Virus record (IMG/VR): IMGVR_UViG_3300017963_000189
DNA from: a virus
Taxonomy: Duplodnaviria > Caudoviricetes
Strand: one strand, 5' to 3'
Length of the DNA stretch: 64,000 nt
Below are positions 6,154 through 25,595 of this stretch, piece after piece. The notes beneath the pieces are model-generated. The model was not told the origin of the DNA. It saw only the letters and a list, made by a program, of their open reading frames with translations, and ran no database searches. The translations under genes were made by a program, and so were the position numbers. Every line of letters begins with the position of its first letter. The first letter of the stretch is position 1.

Positions 6154-6380
6154 TTCTCTACCTCTTTTTTATATGTCGCCTGACACACTCGACAACGATA
6201 TACAATAGTATAATCAAGATACTGCCCATCGTCGTCCTCTTTAATCTCCAAACACTTCTCCGTATATAAGTGTTCCTCTTTACAATTATGCTCGCCAACA
6301 TATCGGGGACGCGGAACTACATCCACGTGCCCGATTGTTAACCCCAAATCCCTTAATTTCTTGTACTCTTTACTCAACAT
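6150..6380 (-). CDS. hypothetical protein (start probably MLSK)
   Basis: ATG overlaps the PNK stop; CRVC motif. Confidence 0.5.
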   Translation of the reverse strand: MLSKEYKKLRDLGLTIGHVDVVPRPRYVGEHNCKEEHLYTEKCLEIKEDDDGQYLDYTIVYRCRVCQATYKKEVEK

Positions 6381-7431
6381 AAATAACCTTATTGAACTCA
6401 CTCTTTAAAGATTGTTCACCTTTCTTGAATAATTTATATTGTTTACGGATAATTGATTCCGGTACAACTGATCTATCAACTCCATTTTCTATATCCTTGT
6501 TTACTCGTTCTAATGAAGTTTCTACATCAGATTCAAATACAACGGCTATCTTTTGCGCACCATTGAAATCAGCCATAAACTCAACTCTCAACCATTTATT
6601 TACATTGGTAGCATCCAAATACACTTTACCATATCTACGTAACGCGACTTTCATTCTTATTTTCGCGGTTGGCCAAACTTCAGCATTCATAGATTGATCG
6701 GAAACATCACCGGTCAACTCTCTACGAATATCGTCTGGCGAAACAATGTATTTTGGATCAACATTTTTTAAATAACGAGATTTACCTGAACCAGATATTC
6801 CAACCATTACATATACCTTTTTACTGGAATGTCTTTGTTTGAAATATACCCACTTTTCTTTGATAACGTTTTTCAACCTATCAGACCAATCGGATTCTTT
6901 CAAATATAATTGTTTGGATATAACCTTGTCAGCGGTAATAAAATCATCTAAATCGGGATCATCTTGTAACTTCTTGTGACCCGGATTCAAATCCATATGT
7001 TTATCAATCATACGATAAGTTAAATCATAATGTTTGATTCTATTTTTTATAGATTCTAAATACTTTATAGATTCTTTTGGATGTCCAAAAGCATATATAC
7101 GATCATTACCTACATTAGTCTTAGTTCCCTTACCATAATCATGTAAAAAAGCTGCTTCTAACAAATCAGGACGTTTTAATTTCCATACAGCCATTACTAC
7201 ATAATAAGTGTGATAAAAAGCATCAAACTCAGGGTGATGGTTCAAACCTTGTGGAACGCCCTCTAAAGCGTTTACAACCTTAGCGGTAATATCATATTCA
7301 CGTAACGCTCTTTTCCATTCCTCTATATAAGTAGCATTAGTAACAATTCTACGTTGTGGATATTCACGAACAATCGCCCGTGAACATAACCAAGTTTCAA
7401 CCAATATGTTTTTTAAACTTTGTTGTGCCAT
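6370..7431 (-). CDS. HD-domain / polynucleotide kinase fusion (RNA end healing)
   Basis: HHPEFDAFYHT...AAFLHDYGK (CCA-enzyme-like HD domain) followed by P-loop VGISGSGKS, SPDDIR, LDATN. Confidence 0.8.
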   Translation of the reverse strand: MAQQSLKNILVETWLCSRAIVREYPQRRIVTNATYIEEWKRALREYDITAKVVNALEGVPQGLNHHPEFDAFYHTYYVVMAVWKLKRPDLLEAAFLHDYGKGTKTNVGNDRIYAFGHPKESIKYLESIKNRIKHYDLTYRMIDKHMDLNPGHKKLQDDPDLDDFITADKVISKQLYLKESDWSDRLKNVIKEKWVYFKQRHSSKKVYVMVGISGSGKSRYLKNVDPKYIVSPDDIRRELTGDVSDQSMNAEVWPTAKIRMKVALRRYGKVYLDATNVNKWLRVEFMADFNGAQKIAVVFESDVETSLERVNKDIENGVDRSVVPESIIRKQYKLFKKGEQSLKSEFNKVIYVE

Positions 7432-7482: not shown

Positions 7483-8080
7483 GTGTTTTTTTCAATATTT
7501 TTTCCTTTTCTAATACCTTATGTAACGCTTGTAAAATAAACAACTCATACTCTTTTCCTGCTCTCGCATACATATGAGTAATAACATTCTTTGGATCAAA
7601 ACCCTTTCGATATGGGCGATCCTGCGTCATAGCATCATAAACATCAACTATCGCTAATATCTGGGCGAGCCCGTTGAACTCCGTTCCCTTTAAACCATTT
7701 GGATAACCTGTACCATTCAACTTCTCATGATGTTGCTCAACTATCTCAGCTTCAGCATCCATACCAAGTGACCGTAAAATCGTAGCACTGTCTGATGGAT
7801 GTTGTTTGATACTCTCATATTCTTCGCCAGTTAATTTACCGGGTTTAAATAAAATACCCTTTGGTATCTTGATTTTTCCCACATCATGATAATACGCTGC
7901 ACGTGTTACCAGGTTCGCGGTTTTCAAGTCTAAACCCAACTCTTGGGCGACCATCTTAACAATCCTACCAACCCTTAAAGAATGTTTTTGGGTATAATCA
8001 GAGTCCTCTACGGCTTTCAGAAGACTCATTGTGATTAATACCCTTTGATAGTCTATTTCAAATTTAGTGTCCTTTGCCAT
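7472..8080 (-). CDS. HD-GYP cyclic-dinucleotide phosphodiesterase (stand-alone)
   Basis: YTQKHSLRV, YHDVGKIKIP, IKQHP, QHHEKLNGTGYPNGL, DVYDAMTQDRPYR. Confidence 0.9.
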   Translation of the reverse strand: MAKDTKFEIDYQRVLITMSLLKAVEDSDYTQKHSLRVGRIVKMVAQELGLDLKTANLVTRAAYYHDVGKIKIPKGILFKPGKLTGEEYESIKQHPSDSATILRSLGMDAEAEIVEQHHEKLNGTGYPNGLKGTEFNGLAQILAIVDVYDAMTQDRPYRKGFDPKNVITHMYARAGKEYELFILQALHKVLEKEKILKKTLDI

Positions 8081-9260
8081 TTATTTTCTCTACCAATAAA
8101 TTTTTTATTCGTTTTAATCCCTTTTGTTCGTACAATCCATGTATTACATCTATCGCCTTTAATTCAGGTTTATCTACCATAGTGAAAATAAATCCAACTC
8201 GATCACGTTTGATTTTATCTTGTATCTCTAACGCTAACTCTTTACGAGACATTTCAGGCGCTCTTTTTCTATAATACTCACCCTCTTTAGATAAATATTC
8301 AATCAATTCAAAATACCTTTTTTTCAACAACTTATATTCTTCTTTTACGGAATCAGGTAACTTGTCCAAATATACTTCAAATTCTTCTTCCTCGTTGTCC
8401 AATAAAACACCTACCAAGTTGTTAGTCACACCCTCGCCAGTAGCTACATGGTGTAAATGAACATACTTTGGCGACTTAACTTTTACTCGACCAACTACTA
8501 AATCATCTTTGAACTGAACAACTATAAATCCCTCAAATCCATTTCCCTTTTCATTCTCTTTATCAGCAATTTCAGATAATTCGGAAACATCCTTAACATC
8601 TTTCAAATCAAACAATCTTGGAAAACGTATAGAATATCCCTTGAACATCTTTTCGTATTTCTTCTTTATGGATTTATGGAATATATTAAAGTCACGTAAT
8701 TCACCATCGTTTTCTTTTAAACCAATGAAAACTAACTCTTTTACGCCTTCATAATCAACTACTATTTGATTTGATGGATGTACCAACTCAAACATATAAG
8801 TCAAATTTGGCGAAAATTCCGCAGTTAACTTTTCAAAATCTTCTTTAGAAACTACATCAAAGAAAATCTTGGAAAAAGAAATTCCATCCATATTAGACGC
8901 ATCATCAGCATCAATAGTTCCATTAGTTGCTACTCTCCATTCACCATCATAAAAATATACTTTTATAATAGAACCATCTACCTTTTCAACTACATAAGAA
9001 TCATCTAATATCAAATTGTAAGCATATATTTCACCGTAGTTGAAAAACTTATCAAATGGATGCGCAACTATATTCCAAGTTCCCTTTTCTAATATGATAC
9101 CACGAGATTCTTTTACAATCTTGTTAGAGAAATCGGAATTAAACTGATTATACTTGAATATAACTAAGTTATCCTTAGCATTAATATGCAAGTTGAACGG
9201 GTCTTTACGTAAATCATCTAAAGACCGTATTTTCAATATTTTTTGTAAGTTCAATTTCAC
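8064..9260 (-). CDS. RNA ligase (T4 Rnl1-like)
   Basis: ESRGIIL, PFDKFFN, motif I EKVDGS, FELV, EGFIV, RVKVK. Confidence 0.88.
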   Translation of the reverse strand: MKLNLQKILKIRSLDDLRKDPFNLHINAKDNLVIFKYNQFNSDFSNKIVKESRGIILEKGTWNIVAHPFDKFFNYGEIYAYNLILDDSYVVEKVDGSIIKVYFYDGEWRVATNGTIDADDASNMDGISFSKIFFDVVSKEDFEKLTAEFSPNLTYMFELVHPSNQIVVDYEGVKELVFIGLKENDGELRDFNIFHKSIKKKYEKMFKGYSIRFPRLFDLKDVKDVSELSEIADKENEKGNGFEGFIVVQFKDDLVVGRVKVKSPKYVHLHHVATGEGVTNNLVGVLLDNEEEEFEVYLDKLPDSVKEEYKLLKKRYFELIEYLSKEGEYYRKRAPEMSRKELALEIQDKIKRDRVGFIFTMVDKPELKAIDVIHGLYEQKGLKRIKNLLVEKINGKGH

Positions 9261-10693: not shown

Positions 10694-10703
10694 CTGTTTT
10701 TTG

Positions 10704-10787
10704 TGACCAGAGCGAGACTTGAACTCGCACGAGATTTCTCCCACAACGCCCTCAACGTTGCGCGTCTGCCTATTCCGCCATCTGGCC
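10704..10787 (-). tRNA. tRNA-Leu (GAG)
   Basis: GGCCAGA/TCTGGTC, CAACG-TT-GAG-GG-CGTTG, long variable arm, TTCAAGT. Confidence 0.92.
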
Positions 10788-19413: not shown

Positions 19414-19438
19414 TTACTTTCTCCACATAATAAATTTG

Positions 19439-19528
19439 AGTCGGTGACAGGATTTGAACCTGCGACAGGGTTTCCCCTTTTGCTGGTTTTGCAGACCAGC
19501 CCCTTAGACCAGACTCGGGCACACCGAC
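19439..19528 (-). tRNA. tRNA-Cys (GCA) with long variable arm
   Basis: GTCGGTG/CACCGAC, U73, CTGGT-CT-GCA-AA-ACCAG, variable arm AGGG-GAAA-CCCT, T arm GCAGG-TTCAAAT-CCTGT. Confidence 0.85.
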
Positions 19529-23233: not shown

Positions 23234-25495
23234 TTAAGTTCCATCTAATATTTCTCTTATCTTTCTCGCCAATGATGTCGGCGTCACAGGTTTCTGAATA
23301 AAATTAGTTCCAGGATCTAATACCCCACGATGAACTATTGTGTTATCGGTGTAACCGGACATATACAAAACTTTTAGATTTGGTATAAAATCACTTAACT
23401 GGATCGCAAGTTCTCTACCGTCCATTCTCGGCATCACGACATCAGTCACCAACATATTTATTTTTGTTTGATTATTTTTCATCACTTCTATAGCTTCAAT
23501 ACCATTGGACGCACAAATAACTTTATATCCCATATCTCTTAACGCGTCACAAAGTAATAGACGAACTTCTTTTTCATCTTCTACTAATAACAATGATTCA
23601 TTTCCACTATAATCTAATATCTCTCCATTTATTTGTATTTCGTTTTTTGTCTCTCTATCCACTCTTGGCAAATATACCTTGAACGCCGTTCCTTGTCCAA
23701 TCTCACTATATACCCAAACAAAACCACCACTTTGTTTTATTATTCCATACGCCGTAGACAATCCTAAACCAACTCCCTTACCCATTTCTTTTGTCGTAAA
23801 AAATGGTTCAAAGATTCTTTCTTTTGTCGCCATATCCATTCCAACACCATCATCCGTAACAGAAAACATTATGTAACGACCTTTATCAATCATCTTTTGT
23901 TTTCGTTCAACGTGATCTTCATCAAAATATATATTTTTTGTCTCAAGTCTAATCAATCCTACATCTTGTTCAGGTATAGCATCCCGAGCATTGATTATCA
24001 TATTCATCATAACCAAACTAATTTGATTGACATCAACAAAACAATTACCCAAATCAGGATCAAGATGTTTAGCGATTTCTATATCTTCTCTTATCAGTGT
24101 CGCCAAAACTTTTATTTCATTTTCAAGAATGTTATTTAAGTTAACAACTTCTGGCGTCAAAATTTGTTTTCTACTAAAAGCAAGAAGTTGTTTTGTAAGT
24201 GCCTCGGCTCTATCAGCCGCATTATCTATTTTTTCTAATTTTGTTTGTAAATATATATGTGGTTCTGTTTCAGGACATTTTTGACTTCTCCTAATAAGAA
24301 GTTCAGTGTGACCACGAATAACGGTAAGAATGTTATTGAAATCGTGAGCAACTCCACCCGCTAATAAACCAATAGCTTCCAATTTAGCAGCTTGTCGTAA
24401 TTGTTCTTCAAGATTTAATTTTTCTGATATATCATAAAAAATTACAAGTATAGATTGTTTATTTTTATATATTATTGGTTTAGCAACAACTTCAACATCT
24501 ATGATACTACCATCTTTTTTAAAGAATTTTTCGTCTAACGGTTCATTAGTTTCTCCTGTTTCTATCATATTTTTTATTCTTCCTTTAACAACACTTCTAT
24601 AATCAGGATGAACATAATCCATTACTTTGTCGCCAACCAAATCTTTATAATTGTCAGCTCCAATTAATTGACATGCAGCAGGATTGGCGAAAACAATCTC
24701 CATACTTTTTATATTGTAAACTATGATTGAAGATGGTAAAAGTTCCACTAAATCTTTATATTGTCTTTCAAGAGATTCAAGTTTTAGTTTTTCACTTATA
24801 TCATTGAACAAAACCATACTTGCTTTTTGATTCTTATAAGTTATTAATTTAGAAATCACTTCCATTTCAATAGCTTCTTTTTTATCATGTGATAAAAATT
24901 TCATTCTACTCGCTGGACAATATCCTTTTTCTTGTAATTCCTTTATTCGCCGTTTTCCTTCCTCAATAGAATCAGGATGGACGGATTCAAAAACACTTTC
25001 AGGTTTATCATCGTCCAATGGACGATTTATCATTTTTCTCGCTTGTTTGTTGGAAAATAATTTTTGTTTTGTTTTTAAACTATAAACTGCCATTCCGATT
25101 GGCAAAAGTTCAACTAAATCTTCATAGTATTGTTCTTTTTCTATTTGTTTAGTAATATCTATACCAAAACTTAAAAATGTATTATTTGGAGTTATTTCTG
25201 CAGAAAATAAACCATGACGTGTTTCACCATTTTTATGTAATATGGTAAACTCTCTATTTAATACTTTACCTTTTTCACGTAATTCATTACTAATCGCGAT
25301 CCGTTCTTCCGGATACTTCCACATATTAAATTCAAGAGAAGTTTTACCAATTATTTCTTCTCGTGCATAACCGGTCATTTCACAAAATAAATCATTTACT
25401 TTTATAAACTTTCCAGTGTCCAATTCGCTATATGCTACCGCAATAGGTAACGAACCATATACTTTATCAAATGAAATTGTTATATCGTCGTTCAA
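23234..25495 (-). CDS. hybrid sensor histidine kinase (3 PAS, HisKA, HATPase_c, REC), CckA-like architecture
   Basis: PAS motifs (VNDLFCEMTGY, VHPDS, ANPAA...VHPDY); H box AGGVAHDFNNIL; N box NARDAI; DDGVGMD; FEPFFTTK..GKGVGLGL; REC VEDE...TDVVMP...QKP. Confidence 0.92.
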   Translation of the reverse strand: MNDDITISFDKVYGSLPIAVAYSELDTGKFIKVNDLFCEMTGYAREEIIGKTSLEFNMWKYPEERIAISNELREKGKVLNREFTILHKNGETRHGLFSAEITPNNTFLSFGIDITKQIEKEQYYEDLVELLPIGMAVYSLKTKQKLFSNKQARKMINRPLDDDKPESVFESVHPDSIEEGKRRIKELQEKGYCPASRMKFLSHDKKEAIEMEVISKLITYKNQKASMVLFNDISEKLKLESLERQYKDLVELLPSSIIVYNIKSMEIVFANPAACQLIGADNYKDLVGDKVMDYVHPDYRSVVKGRIKNMIETGETNEPLDEKFFKKDGSIIDVEVVAKPIIYKNKQSILVIFYDISEKLNLEEQLRQAAKLEAIGLLAGGVAHDFNNILTVIRGHTELLIRRSQKCPETEPHIYLQTKLEKIDNAADRAEALTKQLLAFSRKQILTPEVVNLNNILENEIKVLATLIREDIEIAKHLDPDLGNCFVDVNQISLVMMNMIINARDAIPEQDVGLIRLETKNIYFDEDHVERKQKMIDKGRYIMFSVTDDGVGMDMATKERIFEPFFTTKEMGKGVGLGLSTAYGIIKQSGGFVWVYSEIGQGTAFKVYLPRVDRETKNEIQINGEILDYSGNESLLLVEDEKEVRLLLCDALRDMGYKVICASNGIEAIEVMKNNQTKINMLVTDVVMPRMDGRELAIQLSDFIPNLKVLYMSGYTDNTIVHRGVLDPGTNFIQKPVTPTSLARKIREILDGT

Positions 25496-25515: not shown

Positions 25516-25595
25516 AATCCCCGGTGAGAATCGAACTCACATTCTCAGCTCCGGTTACGGCTACAAGCTTAGGAGGCTTGCCCGGCTACGGGGAC
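25516..25595 (-). tRNA. atypical tRNA-Arg (CCT): D arm absent, extended variable region
   Basis: GTCCCCG/CGGGGAT acceptor, only TAGCCGGG before CAAGC-CT-CCT-AA-GCTTG, 23-nt variable region, GTGAG-TTCGATT-CTCAC. Confidence 0.7.

What the first reader, a model, noticed from the sequence alone, without database searches (positions are those of the whole stretch)
25516..25595. D-armless tRNA-Arg(CCU) with a new hairpin in the variable region
Seen: a canonical Arg-like start (GTCCCCGTAGC), a perfect anticodon arm (CAAGC-CTCCTAA-GCTTG) and a perfect T arm. Only 8 nt (TAGCCGGG) separate the acceptor and anticodon stems, while the variable region is 23 nt and can form TAGC-CG-TAAC-CG-GA-GCTG. Established: D-armless tRNAs are known mainly from animal mitochondria, and bacterial ArgRS relies on D-loop A20. 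Inference: the intact stems argue against decay. It may be a rearranged tRNA whose variable hairpin replaces the D arm, a nuclease-resistant tRNA, or a decoy for anticodon nucleases.
Basis: partly seen in the sequence, partly recalled or inferred. Interest (0 to 1): 0.75.

Follow-up and report, generated by a model that had tools for sequence, protein, structure and literature searches.

The report
Rewired phage arginine tRNA gene
This 80-base gene is a member of a widespread phage family of arginine tRNAs in which the anticodon arm branches out of the D arm instead of following it, a conserved design that standard tRNA finders mostly miss and that I could not find described in print.

Summary
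The element is real and lies on the minus strand at 25516-25595.

It is neither a decayed gene nor truly D-armless. I collected more than 120 distinct homologues, mostly from uncultured viral contigs. Cultured phages also carry it: the Pseudomonas PA11 group, about 300 Vibrio phage records and Microbacterium phage Pumpernickel.

Covariation defines a conserved fold:
- Positions 8-11 pair with 47-50.
- Positions 12-14 pair with 36-38 and carry the anticodon arm.
- The loop UAAYYGGA (39-46) looks like a D loop.
- R41 covaries with Y55 like the Levitt pair.

All members found without an anticodon constraint read arginine codons. They sit in phage tRNA arrays, usually supply an Arg anticodon that the ordinary tRNAs there lack, and about half encode CCA.

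My reading is a working tRNA-Arg(CCU) for AGG codons, charged by the host ArgRS. Expression and charging are untested.

This scan had already noted the same design elsewhere in this genome (e1-5406206, e1-5406234). Why phages use it is unknown.

The parts
25516..25595 (-). Whole rewired tRNA-Arg(CCU) gene, 80 nt (element position p = 25596 minus the window coordinate). CCA is not encoded.
   Evidence: (95.9 bits with family model R1)
25589..25595 (-). Acceptor stem, 5' strand (positions 1-7)
   Evidence: 7/7 paired; every pair covaries in the family
25585..25588 (-). UAGC, 5' strand of helix II (positions 8-11), pairs with 47-50
   Evidence: 10:48 is GC79 AU38 CG2 UA2; 11:47 is CG91 UA14 AU9 UG4; RNAalifold predicts it unaided
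25582..25584 (-). CGG, 5' strand of helix III (positions 12-14), pairs with 36-38
   Evidence: 13:37 paired in 121/121 (GC98 AU14 CG6 UA2 GU1); 12:38 invariant C:G; 14:36 paired in 79/121 with A.C and A.A mismatches tolerated
25564..25580 (-). Anticodon arm (positions 16-32): 5-bp stem and loop CUCCUAA; anticodon CCU at 25571-25573
25558..25560 (-). CCG, 3' strand of helix III (positions 36-38)
25550..25557 (-). UAACCGGA, D-loop-like bulge (positions 39-46): A40, R41, Y42, Y43, G44, G45, A46 resemble canonical A14, R15, Y16, Y17, G18, G19, A20
   Evidence: Conserved motif. 41:55 covaries (AU111 GC5 GG5). The base after GG is A in all Arg-type and U in all Ile-type members. The mapping to canonical numbers is inference.
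25546..25549 (-). GCUG, 3' strand of helix II (positions 47-50)
25541..25545 (-). AGAAU, 5-nt linker to the T stem (positions 51-55); U55 pairs with A41 (Levitt-like)
25524..25540 (-). T arm (positions 56-72): 5-bp stem and loop UUCGAUU
25516..25523 (-). Acceptor stem 3' strand (positions 73-79) and discriminator U80

Best explanation
The element is a working phage tRNA gene for arginine (anticodon CCU, reading AGG). It belongs to a conserved family, found almost only in phages, with a rearranged secondary structure.

Shown by covariation: after the 7-bp acceptor stem the chain runs without a spacer into helix II (8-11 with 47-50). Helix III (12-14 with 36-38) follows and carries a normal anticodon arm. 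On the way back, an 8-nt loop, UAAYYGGA, separates the 3' strands of helices III and II. A 5-nt linker then leads into a normal T arm, and R41 pairs with Y55, the base just before the T stem. In effect, the anticodon arm is inserted into a D arm that starts at U8, and the place where the anticodon arm normally sits is reduced to five bases.

Inferred: the RNA is transcribed together with the neighbouring minus-strand genes, since no convincing promoter or terminator of its own was found. It is then cut out by RNase P and 3' processing enzymes and given CCA enzymatically, because this copy does not encode CCA. The host ArgRS would charge it through C35, U36 and the A that follows GG (the A20 equivalent), and it would serve the phage's AGG codons (10.6% of Arg codons in the window).

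Unknown: the three-dimensional fold, and the benefit of the rearrangement.
For: Family and fold:
- Loop-anchored pattern scans and a covariance model recover 69 distinct members and later 121 distinct 80-nt members.
- All acceptor-stem, anticodon-stem and most T-stem pairs covary. So do 10:48, 11:47, 13:37, 14:36 and 41:55.
- RNAalifold predicts the same helices unaided.
- Microbacterium phage Pumpernickel has lost G10 together with G47-C48, so both strands of helix II are shortened.

tRNA function:
- The nine members found by patterns with no anticodon constraint all carry Arg anticodons.
- Paralogues found by the model or by BLAST, rather than by pattern, are also Arg: CCU, UCG, GCG, UCU, ACG.
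- The elements sit inside phage tRNA arrays.
- Only 3 of 17 configurations with an ordinary tRNA-Arg share its anticodon, and many arrays of 20 or more tRNAs have no ordinary tRNA-Arg in the DNA held.
- CCA follows the discriminator in 47 of 85 unique members and 66 of 121.
- The anticodon loop keeps U33 and A37.
- The base after GG is A in all 79 Arg-type members and U in all 6 Ile-type members.
- In Pseudomonas phage Ty (50 kb) the element is the only tRNA-like gene.
- No ArgRS gene is found in three 98-100% complete phage genomes that carry it.

This copy:
- It scores 95.9 bits and matches the consensus at every conserved position.
- Two metagenome assemblies hold the region with no differences, though they may be the source samples.
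- AGG codons are in use.
Against: There is no expression, processing, CCA-addition or charging data for any member, and no RNA run holds this stretch.

The window's copy has a G1.U79 wobble, a U discriminator and no encoded CCA. Each of these is seen in other members but is not typical of tRNA-Arg.

The later search patterns fixed C35, K36 and GGA, so Arg-specificity and the A after GG are unbiased only for the earlier scans and for the paralogue and BLAST-found members.

Geometry is a problem. Only one base (A46) separates G45 from G47 in helix II, so G44-G45 probably cannot make the canonical elbow contact with the T loop while helix II stacks under the acceptor stem. The stack from U8 to the anticodon loop is about 13 layers against about 11 in a normal tRNA.
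Confidence: 0.75

Rival explanations
1. tRNA-like decoy: the RNA copies a tRNA-Arg closely enough to bind or soak up a host tRNA-cutting nuclease (or a modification enzyme) but is not used in translation.
For: This phage carries a polynucleotide kinase and an Rnl1-like RNA ligase, a tRNA-repair kit, so tRNA-directed conflict is plausible here. Phage tRNAs are known to counter tRNA-targeting defences (PMC10264068, PMC11464382, PMC11555353, listed). No charging data exist.
Against: A decoy would not need encoded CCA, an anticodon set that complements the ordinary Arg tRNAs in the same array, a canonical 7/5 acceptor/T helix of the kind EF-Tu binds, or an amino-acid-specific base after GG. In several arrays it is the only Arg tRNA in the DNA held.
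Confidence: 0.1
2. One reading: a D-armless tRNA in which a new hairpin in the 23-nt variable region stands in for the D arm.
For: The hairpin can be drawn on this sequence (-22.6 kcal/mol). Rfam's tRNA model aligns some members this way, deleting the D arm and inserting 20 nt in the variable region.
Against: Positions 36 and 37 covary with 14 and 13, not with 45 and 44. 36:45 is unpaired in 38 of 121 members, and the partners G44 and G45 never change. The GCUG strand covaries with UAGC at 8-11, not with 33-36; the second TAGC is peculiar to this copy and a few others.
Confidence: 0.03
3. Decayed or rearranged tRNA pseudogene, or an assembly artefact, with no function.
For: tRNA finders reject it. 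CCA is not encoded in this copy.
Against: More than 120 distinct sequences from unrelated phages keep the same layout, with compensatory changes in every helix. Cultured phage genomes carry it. Two assemblies agree base for base.
Confidence: 0.02
4. tRNA-like processing signal: an RNase P / RNase Z cleavage module that separates the mRNAs of the flanking genes, with the anticodon irrelevant.
For: It lies 3 nt after the stop codon of a 68-aa ORF and 20 nt before the start of the histidine kinase gene, with no promoter or terminator of its own.
Against: A pure processing signal would not keep a 7-nt anticodon loop restricted to Arg anticodons, nor complement the Arg set in tRNA arrays. Most family members lie among tRNA genes rather than between protein genes.
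Confidence: 0.05

Closest known systems
Canonical bacterial and phage tRNA-Arg (Rfam RF00005; for example E. coli argU-type tRNA-Arg UCU/CCU)
   Same: 7-bp acceptor stem, 5-bp T stem with a GUUCGA-type loop, 5-bp anticodon stem with a 7-nt loop (U33, C35, A37), Arg anticodons, a GG-A motif like G18-G19-A20, an R:Y pair next to the T stem like R15:Y48, frequent encoded CCA, and a location in phage tRNA arrays.
   Different: There is no D hairpin between the acceptor and anticodon stems. U8 and A9 are base-paired in a helix with 47-50. The anticodon arm sits on a 3-bp stem that branches from inside the D arm. The junction at the acceptor stem is three-way rather than four-way, and the RNA is 80 nt long. 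Rfam misses 20 of 27 sampled members and scores the others 33-38 bits through a wrong alignment; the Ty copy, outside that sample, scores 44.3 bits.
D-armless mitochondrial tRNAs (metazoan mt tRNA-Ser(AGY), nematode and mite minimal tRNAs; PMC2797822)
   Same: No conventional D hairpin 5' of the anticodon arm, and only a short spacer after the acceptor stem.
   Different: Those are truncated RNAs of about 45-65 nt, with a short replacement loop and often degenerate T arms. This one is 80 nt, has a fully canonical T arm, and keeps D-stem-like and D-loop-like sequences moved to the 3' side of the anticodon arm.
Allo-tRNAs and other non-canonical cloverleaves with 8/4 or 9/3 acceptor/T branches (Mukai et al., PMC5389517)
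   Same: Natural, conserved departures from the standard cloverleaf, found in bacteria and their phages by metagenome mining.
   Different: Allo-tRNAs change stem lengths but keep the order acceptor, D, anticodon, V, T. Here the 7/5 branch is standard and the order of the arms is changed. That paper holds no mention of 'tRNAArg' and only passing mentions of the D arm and D stem.
Permuted and split tRNA genes (Cyanidioschyzon merolae, Nanoarchaeum); from my own knowledge
   Same: The order of tRNA segments in the gene differs from the cloverleaf.
   Different: In those cases processing restores a normal mature tRNA. Here the 5' and 3' acceptor strands are at the ends of the gene in normal order, and no excision of one segment would restore a cloverleaf: removing 12-38 would delete the anticodon arm.

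Membership tests
Canonical tRNA (Rfam RF00005) | 7-bp acceptor stem with a 5-bp T stem and a 7-nt T loop adjacent to it | tested here: met
Canonical tRNA (Rfam RF00005) | 5-bp anticodon stem and 7-nt loop with U33 and a purine at 37 | tested here: met
Canonical tRNA (Rfam RF00005) | D hairpin (10-13 paired with 22-25) between the acceptor and anticodon stems, forming a four-way junction | tested here: not met
   Only 8 nt lie there; they pair with bases 3' of the anticodon arm
Canonical tRNA (Rfam RF00005) | Reaches the Rfam gathering score (29 bits) | tested here: not met
   No tRNA match for this copy even at E up to 10; 7 of 27 sampled relatives pass marginally
Canonical tRNA (Rfam RF00005) | Mature RNA with a CCA end that is aminoacylated and used by the ribosome | not testable with these tools
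   No RNA run holds the stretch
Rewired phage tRNA-Arg family (defined here; also noted earlier in this scan) | Helix 8-11:47-50 directly after the acceptor stem | tested here: met
   UAGC/GCUG in this copy; covariation
Rewired phage tRNA-Arg family (defined here; also noted earlier in this scan) | Helix 12-14:36-38 carrying the anticodon arm | tested here: met
   CGG/CCG in this copy
Rewired phage tRNA-Arg family (defined here; also noted earlier in this scan) | Loop UAAYYGGA, R41:Y55 pair and 5-nt linker to the T stem | tested here: met
   UAACCGGA, A41:U55 and AGAAU in this copy
Rewired phage tRNA-Arg family (defined here; also noted earlier in this scan) | Arg anticodon (NCU or NCG) | tested here: met
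   CCU
D-armless mitochondrial-type tRNA | Truncated RNA (about 45-65 nt) in which the D arm is replaced by a short unpaired loop | tested here: not met
   80 nt; the spacer is base-paired to downstream sequence. ARAGORN's mitochondrial mode gives only a 48-nt partial call.
Class II tRNA (long variable arm) | Conserved hairpin within the variable region | tested here: not met
   The proposed hairpin has no covariation and competes with covarying pairs

The most novel reading that the evidence does not exclude
The rearranged topology is adaptive. It gives phages an arginine tRNA that still works with ArgRS, EF-Tu and the ribosome, but that host tRNA-directed nucleases or other tRNA-recognising defences (or the phage's own host-shutoff enzymes) no longer recognise, because they read the D arm or tRNA core. 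It would also show that the tRNA shape can be built with a different strand topology, giving a natural new scaffold for orthogonal tRNAs.
Probability: 0.2. Interest if true: 0.9.

Novelty: new variant of a known kind. Interest (0 to 1): 0.8.

Why it matters
The order of the arms in the cloverleaf is among the most conserved features in biology. Known exceptions shorten or lose arms, or change stem lengths.

A large, covariation-supported family in which the anticodon arm branches from inside the D arm would be a new way to build a tRNA. It occurs in cultured Pseudomonas, Vibrio and Microbacterium phages and is specific for arginine, with a related isoleucine form.

It has three consequences:
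- Phage tRNA inventories are undercounted. None of the GenBank rows returned for the roughly 310 matching records annotates it as a tRNA, and two tRNA finders mostly miss or miscall it.
- It raises direct questions about how ArgRS, RNase P, EF-Tu and the ribosome accept the altered core.
- It is immediately testable in laboratory phage-host pairs.

If the design evades tRNA-targeting defences, it adds a structural strategy to the known anticodon-loop escape mutations.

Tried and rejected
- **Whole genome:** none is held for this window, so the other copies reported by earlier notes could not be read.
- **Relatives through flanking proteins:** the NT5C-like protein and the hybrid histidine kinase found no related viral loci. 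A 3-kb blastn against GenBank phages found nothing.
- **Exact 24-nt scan of the anticodon arm:** nothing.
- **First motif scan:** it returned mostly ordinary tRNAs, mainly tRNA-Gly, whose anticodon stem reads AGCUGA, plus a few non-tRNA stretches. Only L010 was a true relative. L015, L023, L024 and L027 were false pattern hits.
- **My first mapping:** I took AGCUG to be the D loop and 11-14:42-45 to be the D stem, as in the MFE fold. I rejected this because 14:42 is unpaired in 44 of 69 members and 13:43 does not covary.
- **ARAGORN relaxed, intron and mitochondrial modes:** these gave unconvincing alternative folds.
- **Expression:** no RNA holder is listed for this stretch, so expression could not be examined. 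The two DNA runs may be the source samples.
- **Promoter and terminator scan:** no credible signal.
- **Context of the Brucella and Ochrobactrum hits:** unresolved.
- **Literature:** four full-text searches and one paper look-up found no description of this design. That is not proof that none exists.
- **Not used:** the metagenome scan, and 3D modelling of RNA, which these tools do not offer.

Full report
**What is in the window.** Read on the minus strand, 25516-25595 is an 80-nt element. Its parts, in order:
- a 7-bp acceptor stem with a G.U pair at the top;
- the 8 bases UAGCCGGG;
- a perfect 5-bp stem with the loop CUCCUAA (anticodon CCU);
- 23 further bases;
- a perfect T arm with the loop UUCGAUU;
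- the acceptor 3' strand and a U discriminator.

CCA is not encoded. The element lies 3 nt after the stop codon of a 68-aa ORF and 20 nt before the start of a PAS/HisKA/HATPase/receiver hybrid kinase gene.

The window is about 33% GC, and every ORF of 200 aa or more lies on the minus strand. It has phage hallmarks: a phage metallopeptidase, an Rnl1-like RNA ligase and a polynucleotide kinase. ARAGORN finds seven ordinary tRNA genes, none of them for arginine.

ARAGORN at default settings and Rfam, at the gathering score and at E up to 10, do not report the element. Relaxed ARAGORN modes give unconvincing folds.

**Finding relatives.** Searches through the flanking proteins and through long DNA stretches found nothing. 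Pattern scans anchored on the loops did.
- A first scan gave one true relative, L010, among ordinary tRNAs and a few non-tRNA stretches.
- A second scan, with no constraint on the anticodon, gave nine elements in total, counting the window's own copy. All share the layout, have entirely different but compensated stems, and carry Arg anticodons.
- The same pattern found only 11 places in 596 billion bases of bacterial and archaeal genomes. Most are short MAG contigs carrying phage-like tRNA arrays or phage-family genes.

A covariance model built from the first nine separates family members (62-100 bits) from ordinary tRNAs (30 bits or less), with a few divergent relatives in between. The window's copy scores 95.9 bits.

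**The fold.** On 69 distinct sequences, every acceptor and anticodon-stem pair and most T-stem pairs show changes on both sides. The informative part is the region where the D arm should be. Three models were compared, and the last scan, which left positions 47-50 free, made the result decisive (121 distinct 80-nt sequences):

| Pair | Counts |
|---|---|
| 10:48 | GC 79, AU 38, CG 2, UA 2 |
| 11:47 | CG 91, UA 14, AU 9, UG 4, unpaired 3 |
| 9:49 | AU 118, unpaired 3 |
| 8:50 | U.G in all 121 |
| 12:38 | C:G in all 121 |
| 13:37 | Paired in 121/121 (GC 98, AU 14, CG 6, UA 2, GU 1) |
| 14:36 | Paired in 79/121, with A.C and A.A mismatches |
| 41:55 | AU 111, GC 5, GG 5 |

RNAalifold, run without guidance, predicts the same helices. 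Microbacterium phage Pumpernickel has lost G10 together with G47-C48.

The rival pairings fail:
- 14:42 is unpaired in most members.
- 13:43 does not covary.

On this copy the supported fold costs -25.8 kcal/mol.

The fold therefore reads, in order: acceptor stem; helix II (8-11 with 47-50) with no spacer; helix III (12-14 with 36-38); the anticodon arm; the 8-nt loop UAAYYGGA between the two 3' strands; a 5-nt linker; the T arm. Put simply, there is a D arm that starts at U8, and the anticodon arm on a 3-bp stem is inserted between its 5' strand and its loop.

The loop resembles the canonical D loop A14-R15-Y16-Y17-G18-G19-A20. R41:Y55 behaves like the Levitt pair R15:Y48, since 55 is the base just before the T stem. 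These equivalences are inferences from motif and position, not tests.

**Evidence that it is a working tRNA-Arg.**
- Members found without any anticodon constraint are all Arg. So are the paralogues and cultured-phage copies found by the model or by BLAST.
- The elements lie inside phage tRNA arrays.
- Their anticodons usually complement the ordinary Arg tRNAs present. Examples are ordinary CCG, UCU and CCU plus rewired ACG, or ordinary ACG and CCG plus rewired UCU.
- Only 3 of 17 configurations overlap. Many arrays of 20 or more tRNAs have no ordinary tRNA-Arg in the DNA held.
- CCA follows the discriminator in about half of the members.
- The base after GG is A in all 79 Arg-type unique members and U in all 6 members of a related Ile-type group (GAU, UAU) that has the same topology. 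This fits A20 being the D-loop identity element of bacterial ArgRS (established knowledge). The later patterns fixed that A, so the clean evidence comes from the members not found by pattern.
- No ArgRS gene is found in three nearly complete phage genomes that carry the element, so the host enzyme would have to charge it.
- In Pseudomonas phage Ty the element is the only tRNA-like gene in 50 kb.
- In this window AGG makes up 10.6% of Arg codons.

**Cultured phages and annotation.** The element is present in three groups:
- the Pseudomonas aeruginosa PA11 group (PA11, TC6, PSA11, IME180, Ty, PP21 and others);
- about 300 Vibrio phage records (for example D419 and 234P1);
- Microbacterium phage Pumpernickel.

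None of the rows returned annotates it as a tRNA. It is left blank or overlapped by a hypothetical or homing/HNH endonuclease CDS.

Rfam's tRNA model passes 7 of 27 sampled members at 33-38 bits, and the Ty copy at 44.3 bits. It does so by deleting the D arm and inserting 20 nt in the variable region, which is the wrong architecture. ARAGORN miscalled two members, as tRNA-Pyl and tRNA-Thr.

**What is not known.**
- No RNA data exist for this stretch.
- The two DNA runs that hold it agree exactly but may be its source.
- The three-dimensional fold is open. Helices II and III and the anticodon stem share a continuous 5' strand of 13 bases, about two layers more than the distance from U8 to the anticodon loop in a normal tRNA.
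- Only A46 separates G45 from helix II, so a fully canonical G18-G19 contact with the T loop looks difficult.
- Why phages keep this design is also open. Escape from tRNA-directed nucleases is attractive given the known cases of phage tRNAs that evade such defences (PMC10264068, PMC11464382, PMC11555353) and the repair genes in this phage. Nothing here tests that idea.

**Comparison and novelty.** It works like a tRNA-Arg but fails a defining feature of the canonical family: the D hairpin and the four-way junction. It is not a mitochondrial-type D-armless tRNA, a class II tRNA, an allo-tRNA or a permuted gene. Full-text searches found no description of it.

Earlier notes of this scan had already reported the same design at two other places in this genome, and this very element in an overlapping window. 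I reached the fold independently from other phages' sequences. I also refine that reading: the D-loop-like motif is UAAYYGGA, and GCUG is a helix strand that pairs with U8-C11.

Noticed in passing
L083:8601-8678 (-), L057:926-1007 (-), L010:2915-2991 (+), L075:10049-10125, L082:6220-6383: Ile-type relatives (anticodons GAU and UAU, 77-82 nt) with the same topology. The 3-bp stem before UAA covaries (CUC/GAG against CUG/CAG), and U rather than A follows the GG. The rewired design is therefore not limited to arginine.
   Followed up: partly
L045:4255-4332 (+), L104:2598-2675 (-), L019:4040-4118 (+): A shorter Arg subclass (78-79 nt, anticodons GCG and UCG) with TAA/TAT-CCCC after the acceptor stem and GG...GG flanking the D-loop-like motif. 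The topology is the same but the register differs, and it scores only 39-42 bits with the main model.
   Followed up: partly
L125:4551-4971 (Vibrio phage D419, OZ195672): A GOLLD RNA (Rfam RF02032, 176 bits, above the gathering score) lies beside the phage's tRNA array, under several small annotated 'hypothetical protein' CDSs.
   Followed up: no
L124:4281-4352 (Microbacterium phage Pumpernickel): A weak YrlA-like (Y RNA-like) match of 30 bits, below the gathering score of 69, just after a tRNA cluster.
   Followed up: no
window 19438-19528 (-) and 10703-10787 (-): ARAGORN calls a 91-nt tRNA-Cys(GCA) with a long variable arm. It also calls a tRNA-Leu(GAG) that Rfam does not report at its gathering score.
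   Followed up: no
window 6370-7431 (-) and 8064-9260 (-): A polynucleotide-kinase-like protein and an Rnl1-like RNA ligase: a T4-type tRNA repair pair in the same phage.
   Followed up: no
L019:3169-3251 and L113:1223-1305: ARAGORN miscalls two rewired Arg tRNAs, one as tRNA-Pyl(cta) and one as tRNA-Thr(ggt). Such odd calls in phage annotations may mark further members.
   Followed up: partly
L014:1103-1175 (-): ARAGORN calls a tRNA with anticodon UUA (an ochre suppressor type) next to a rewired tRNA-Arg in a 248-kb phage contig.
   Followed up: no
window 23234-25495 (-): The gene directly downstream encodes a 753-aa hybrid histidine kinase (two PAS domains, HisKA, HATPase, receiver). This is unusual cargo for a phage.
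   Followed up: no
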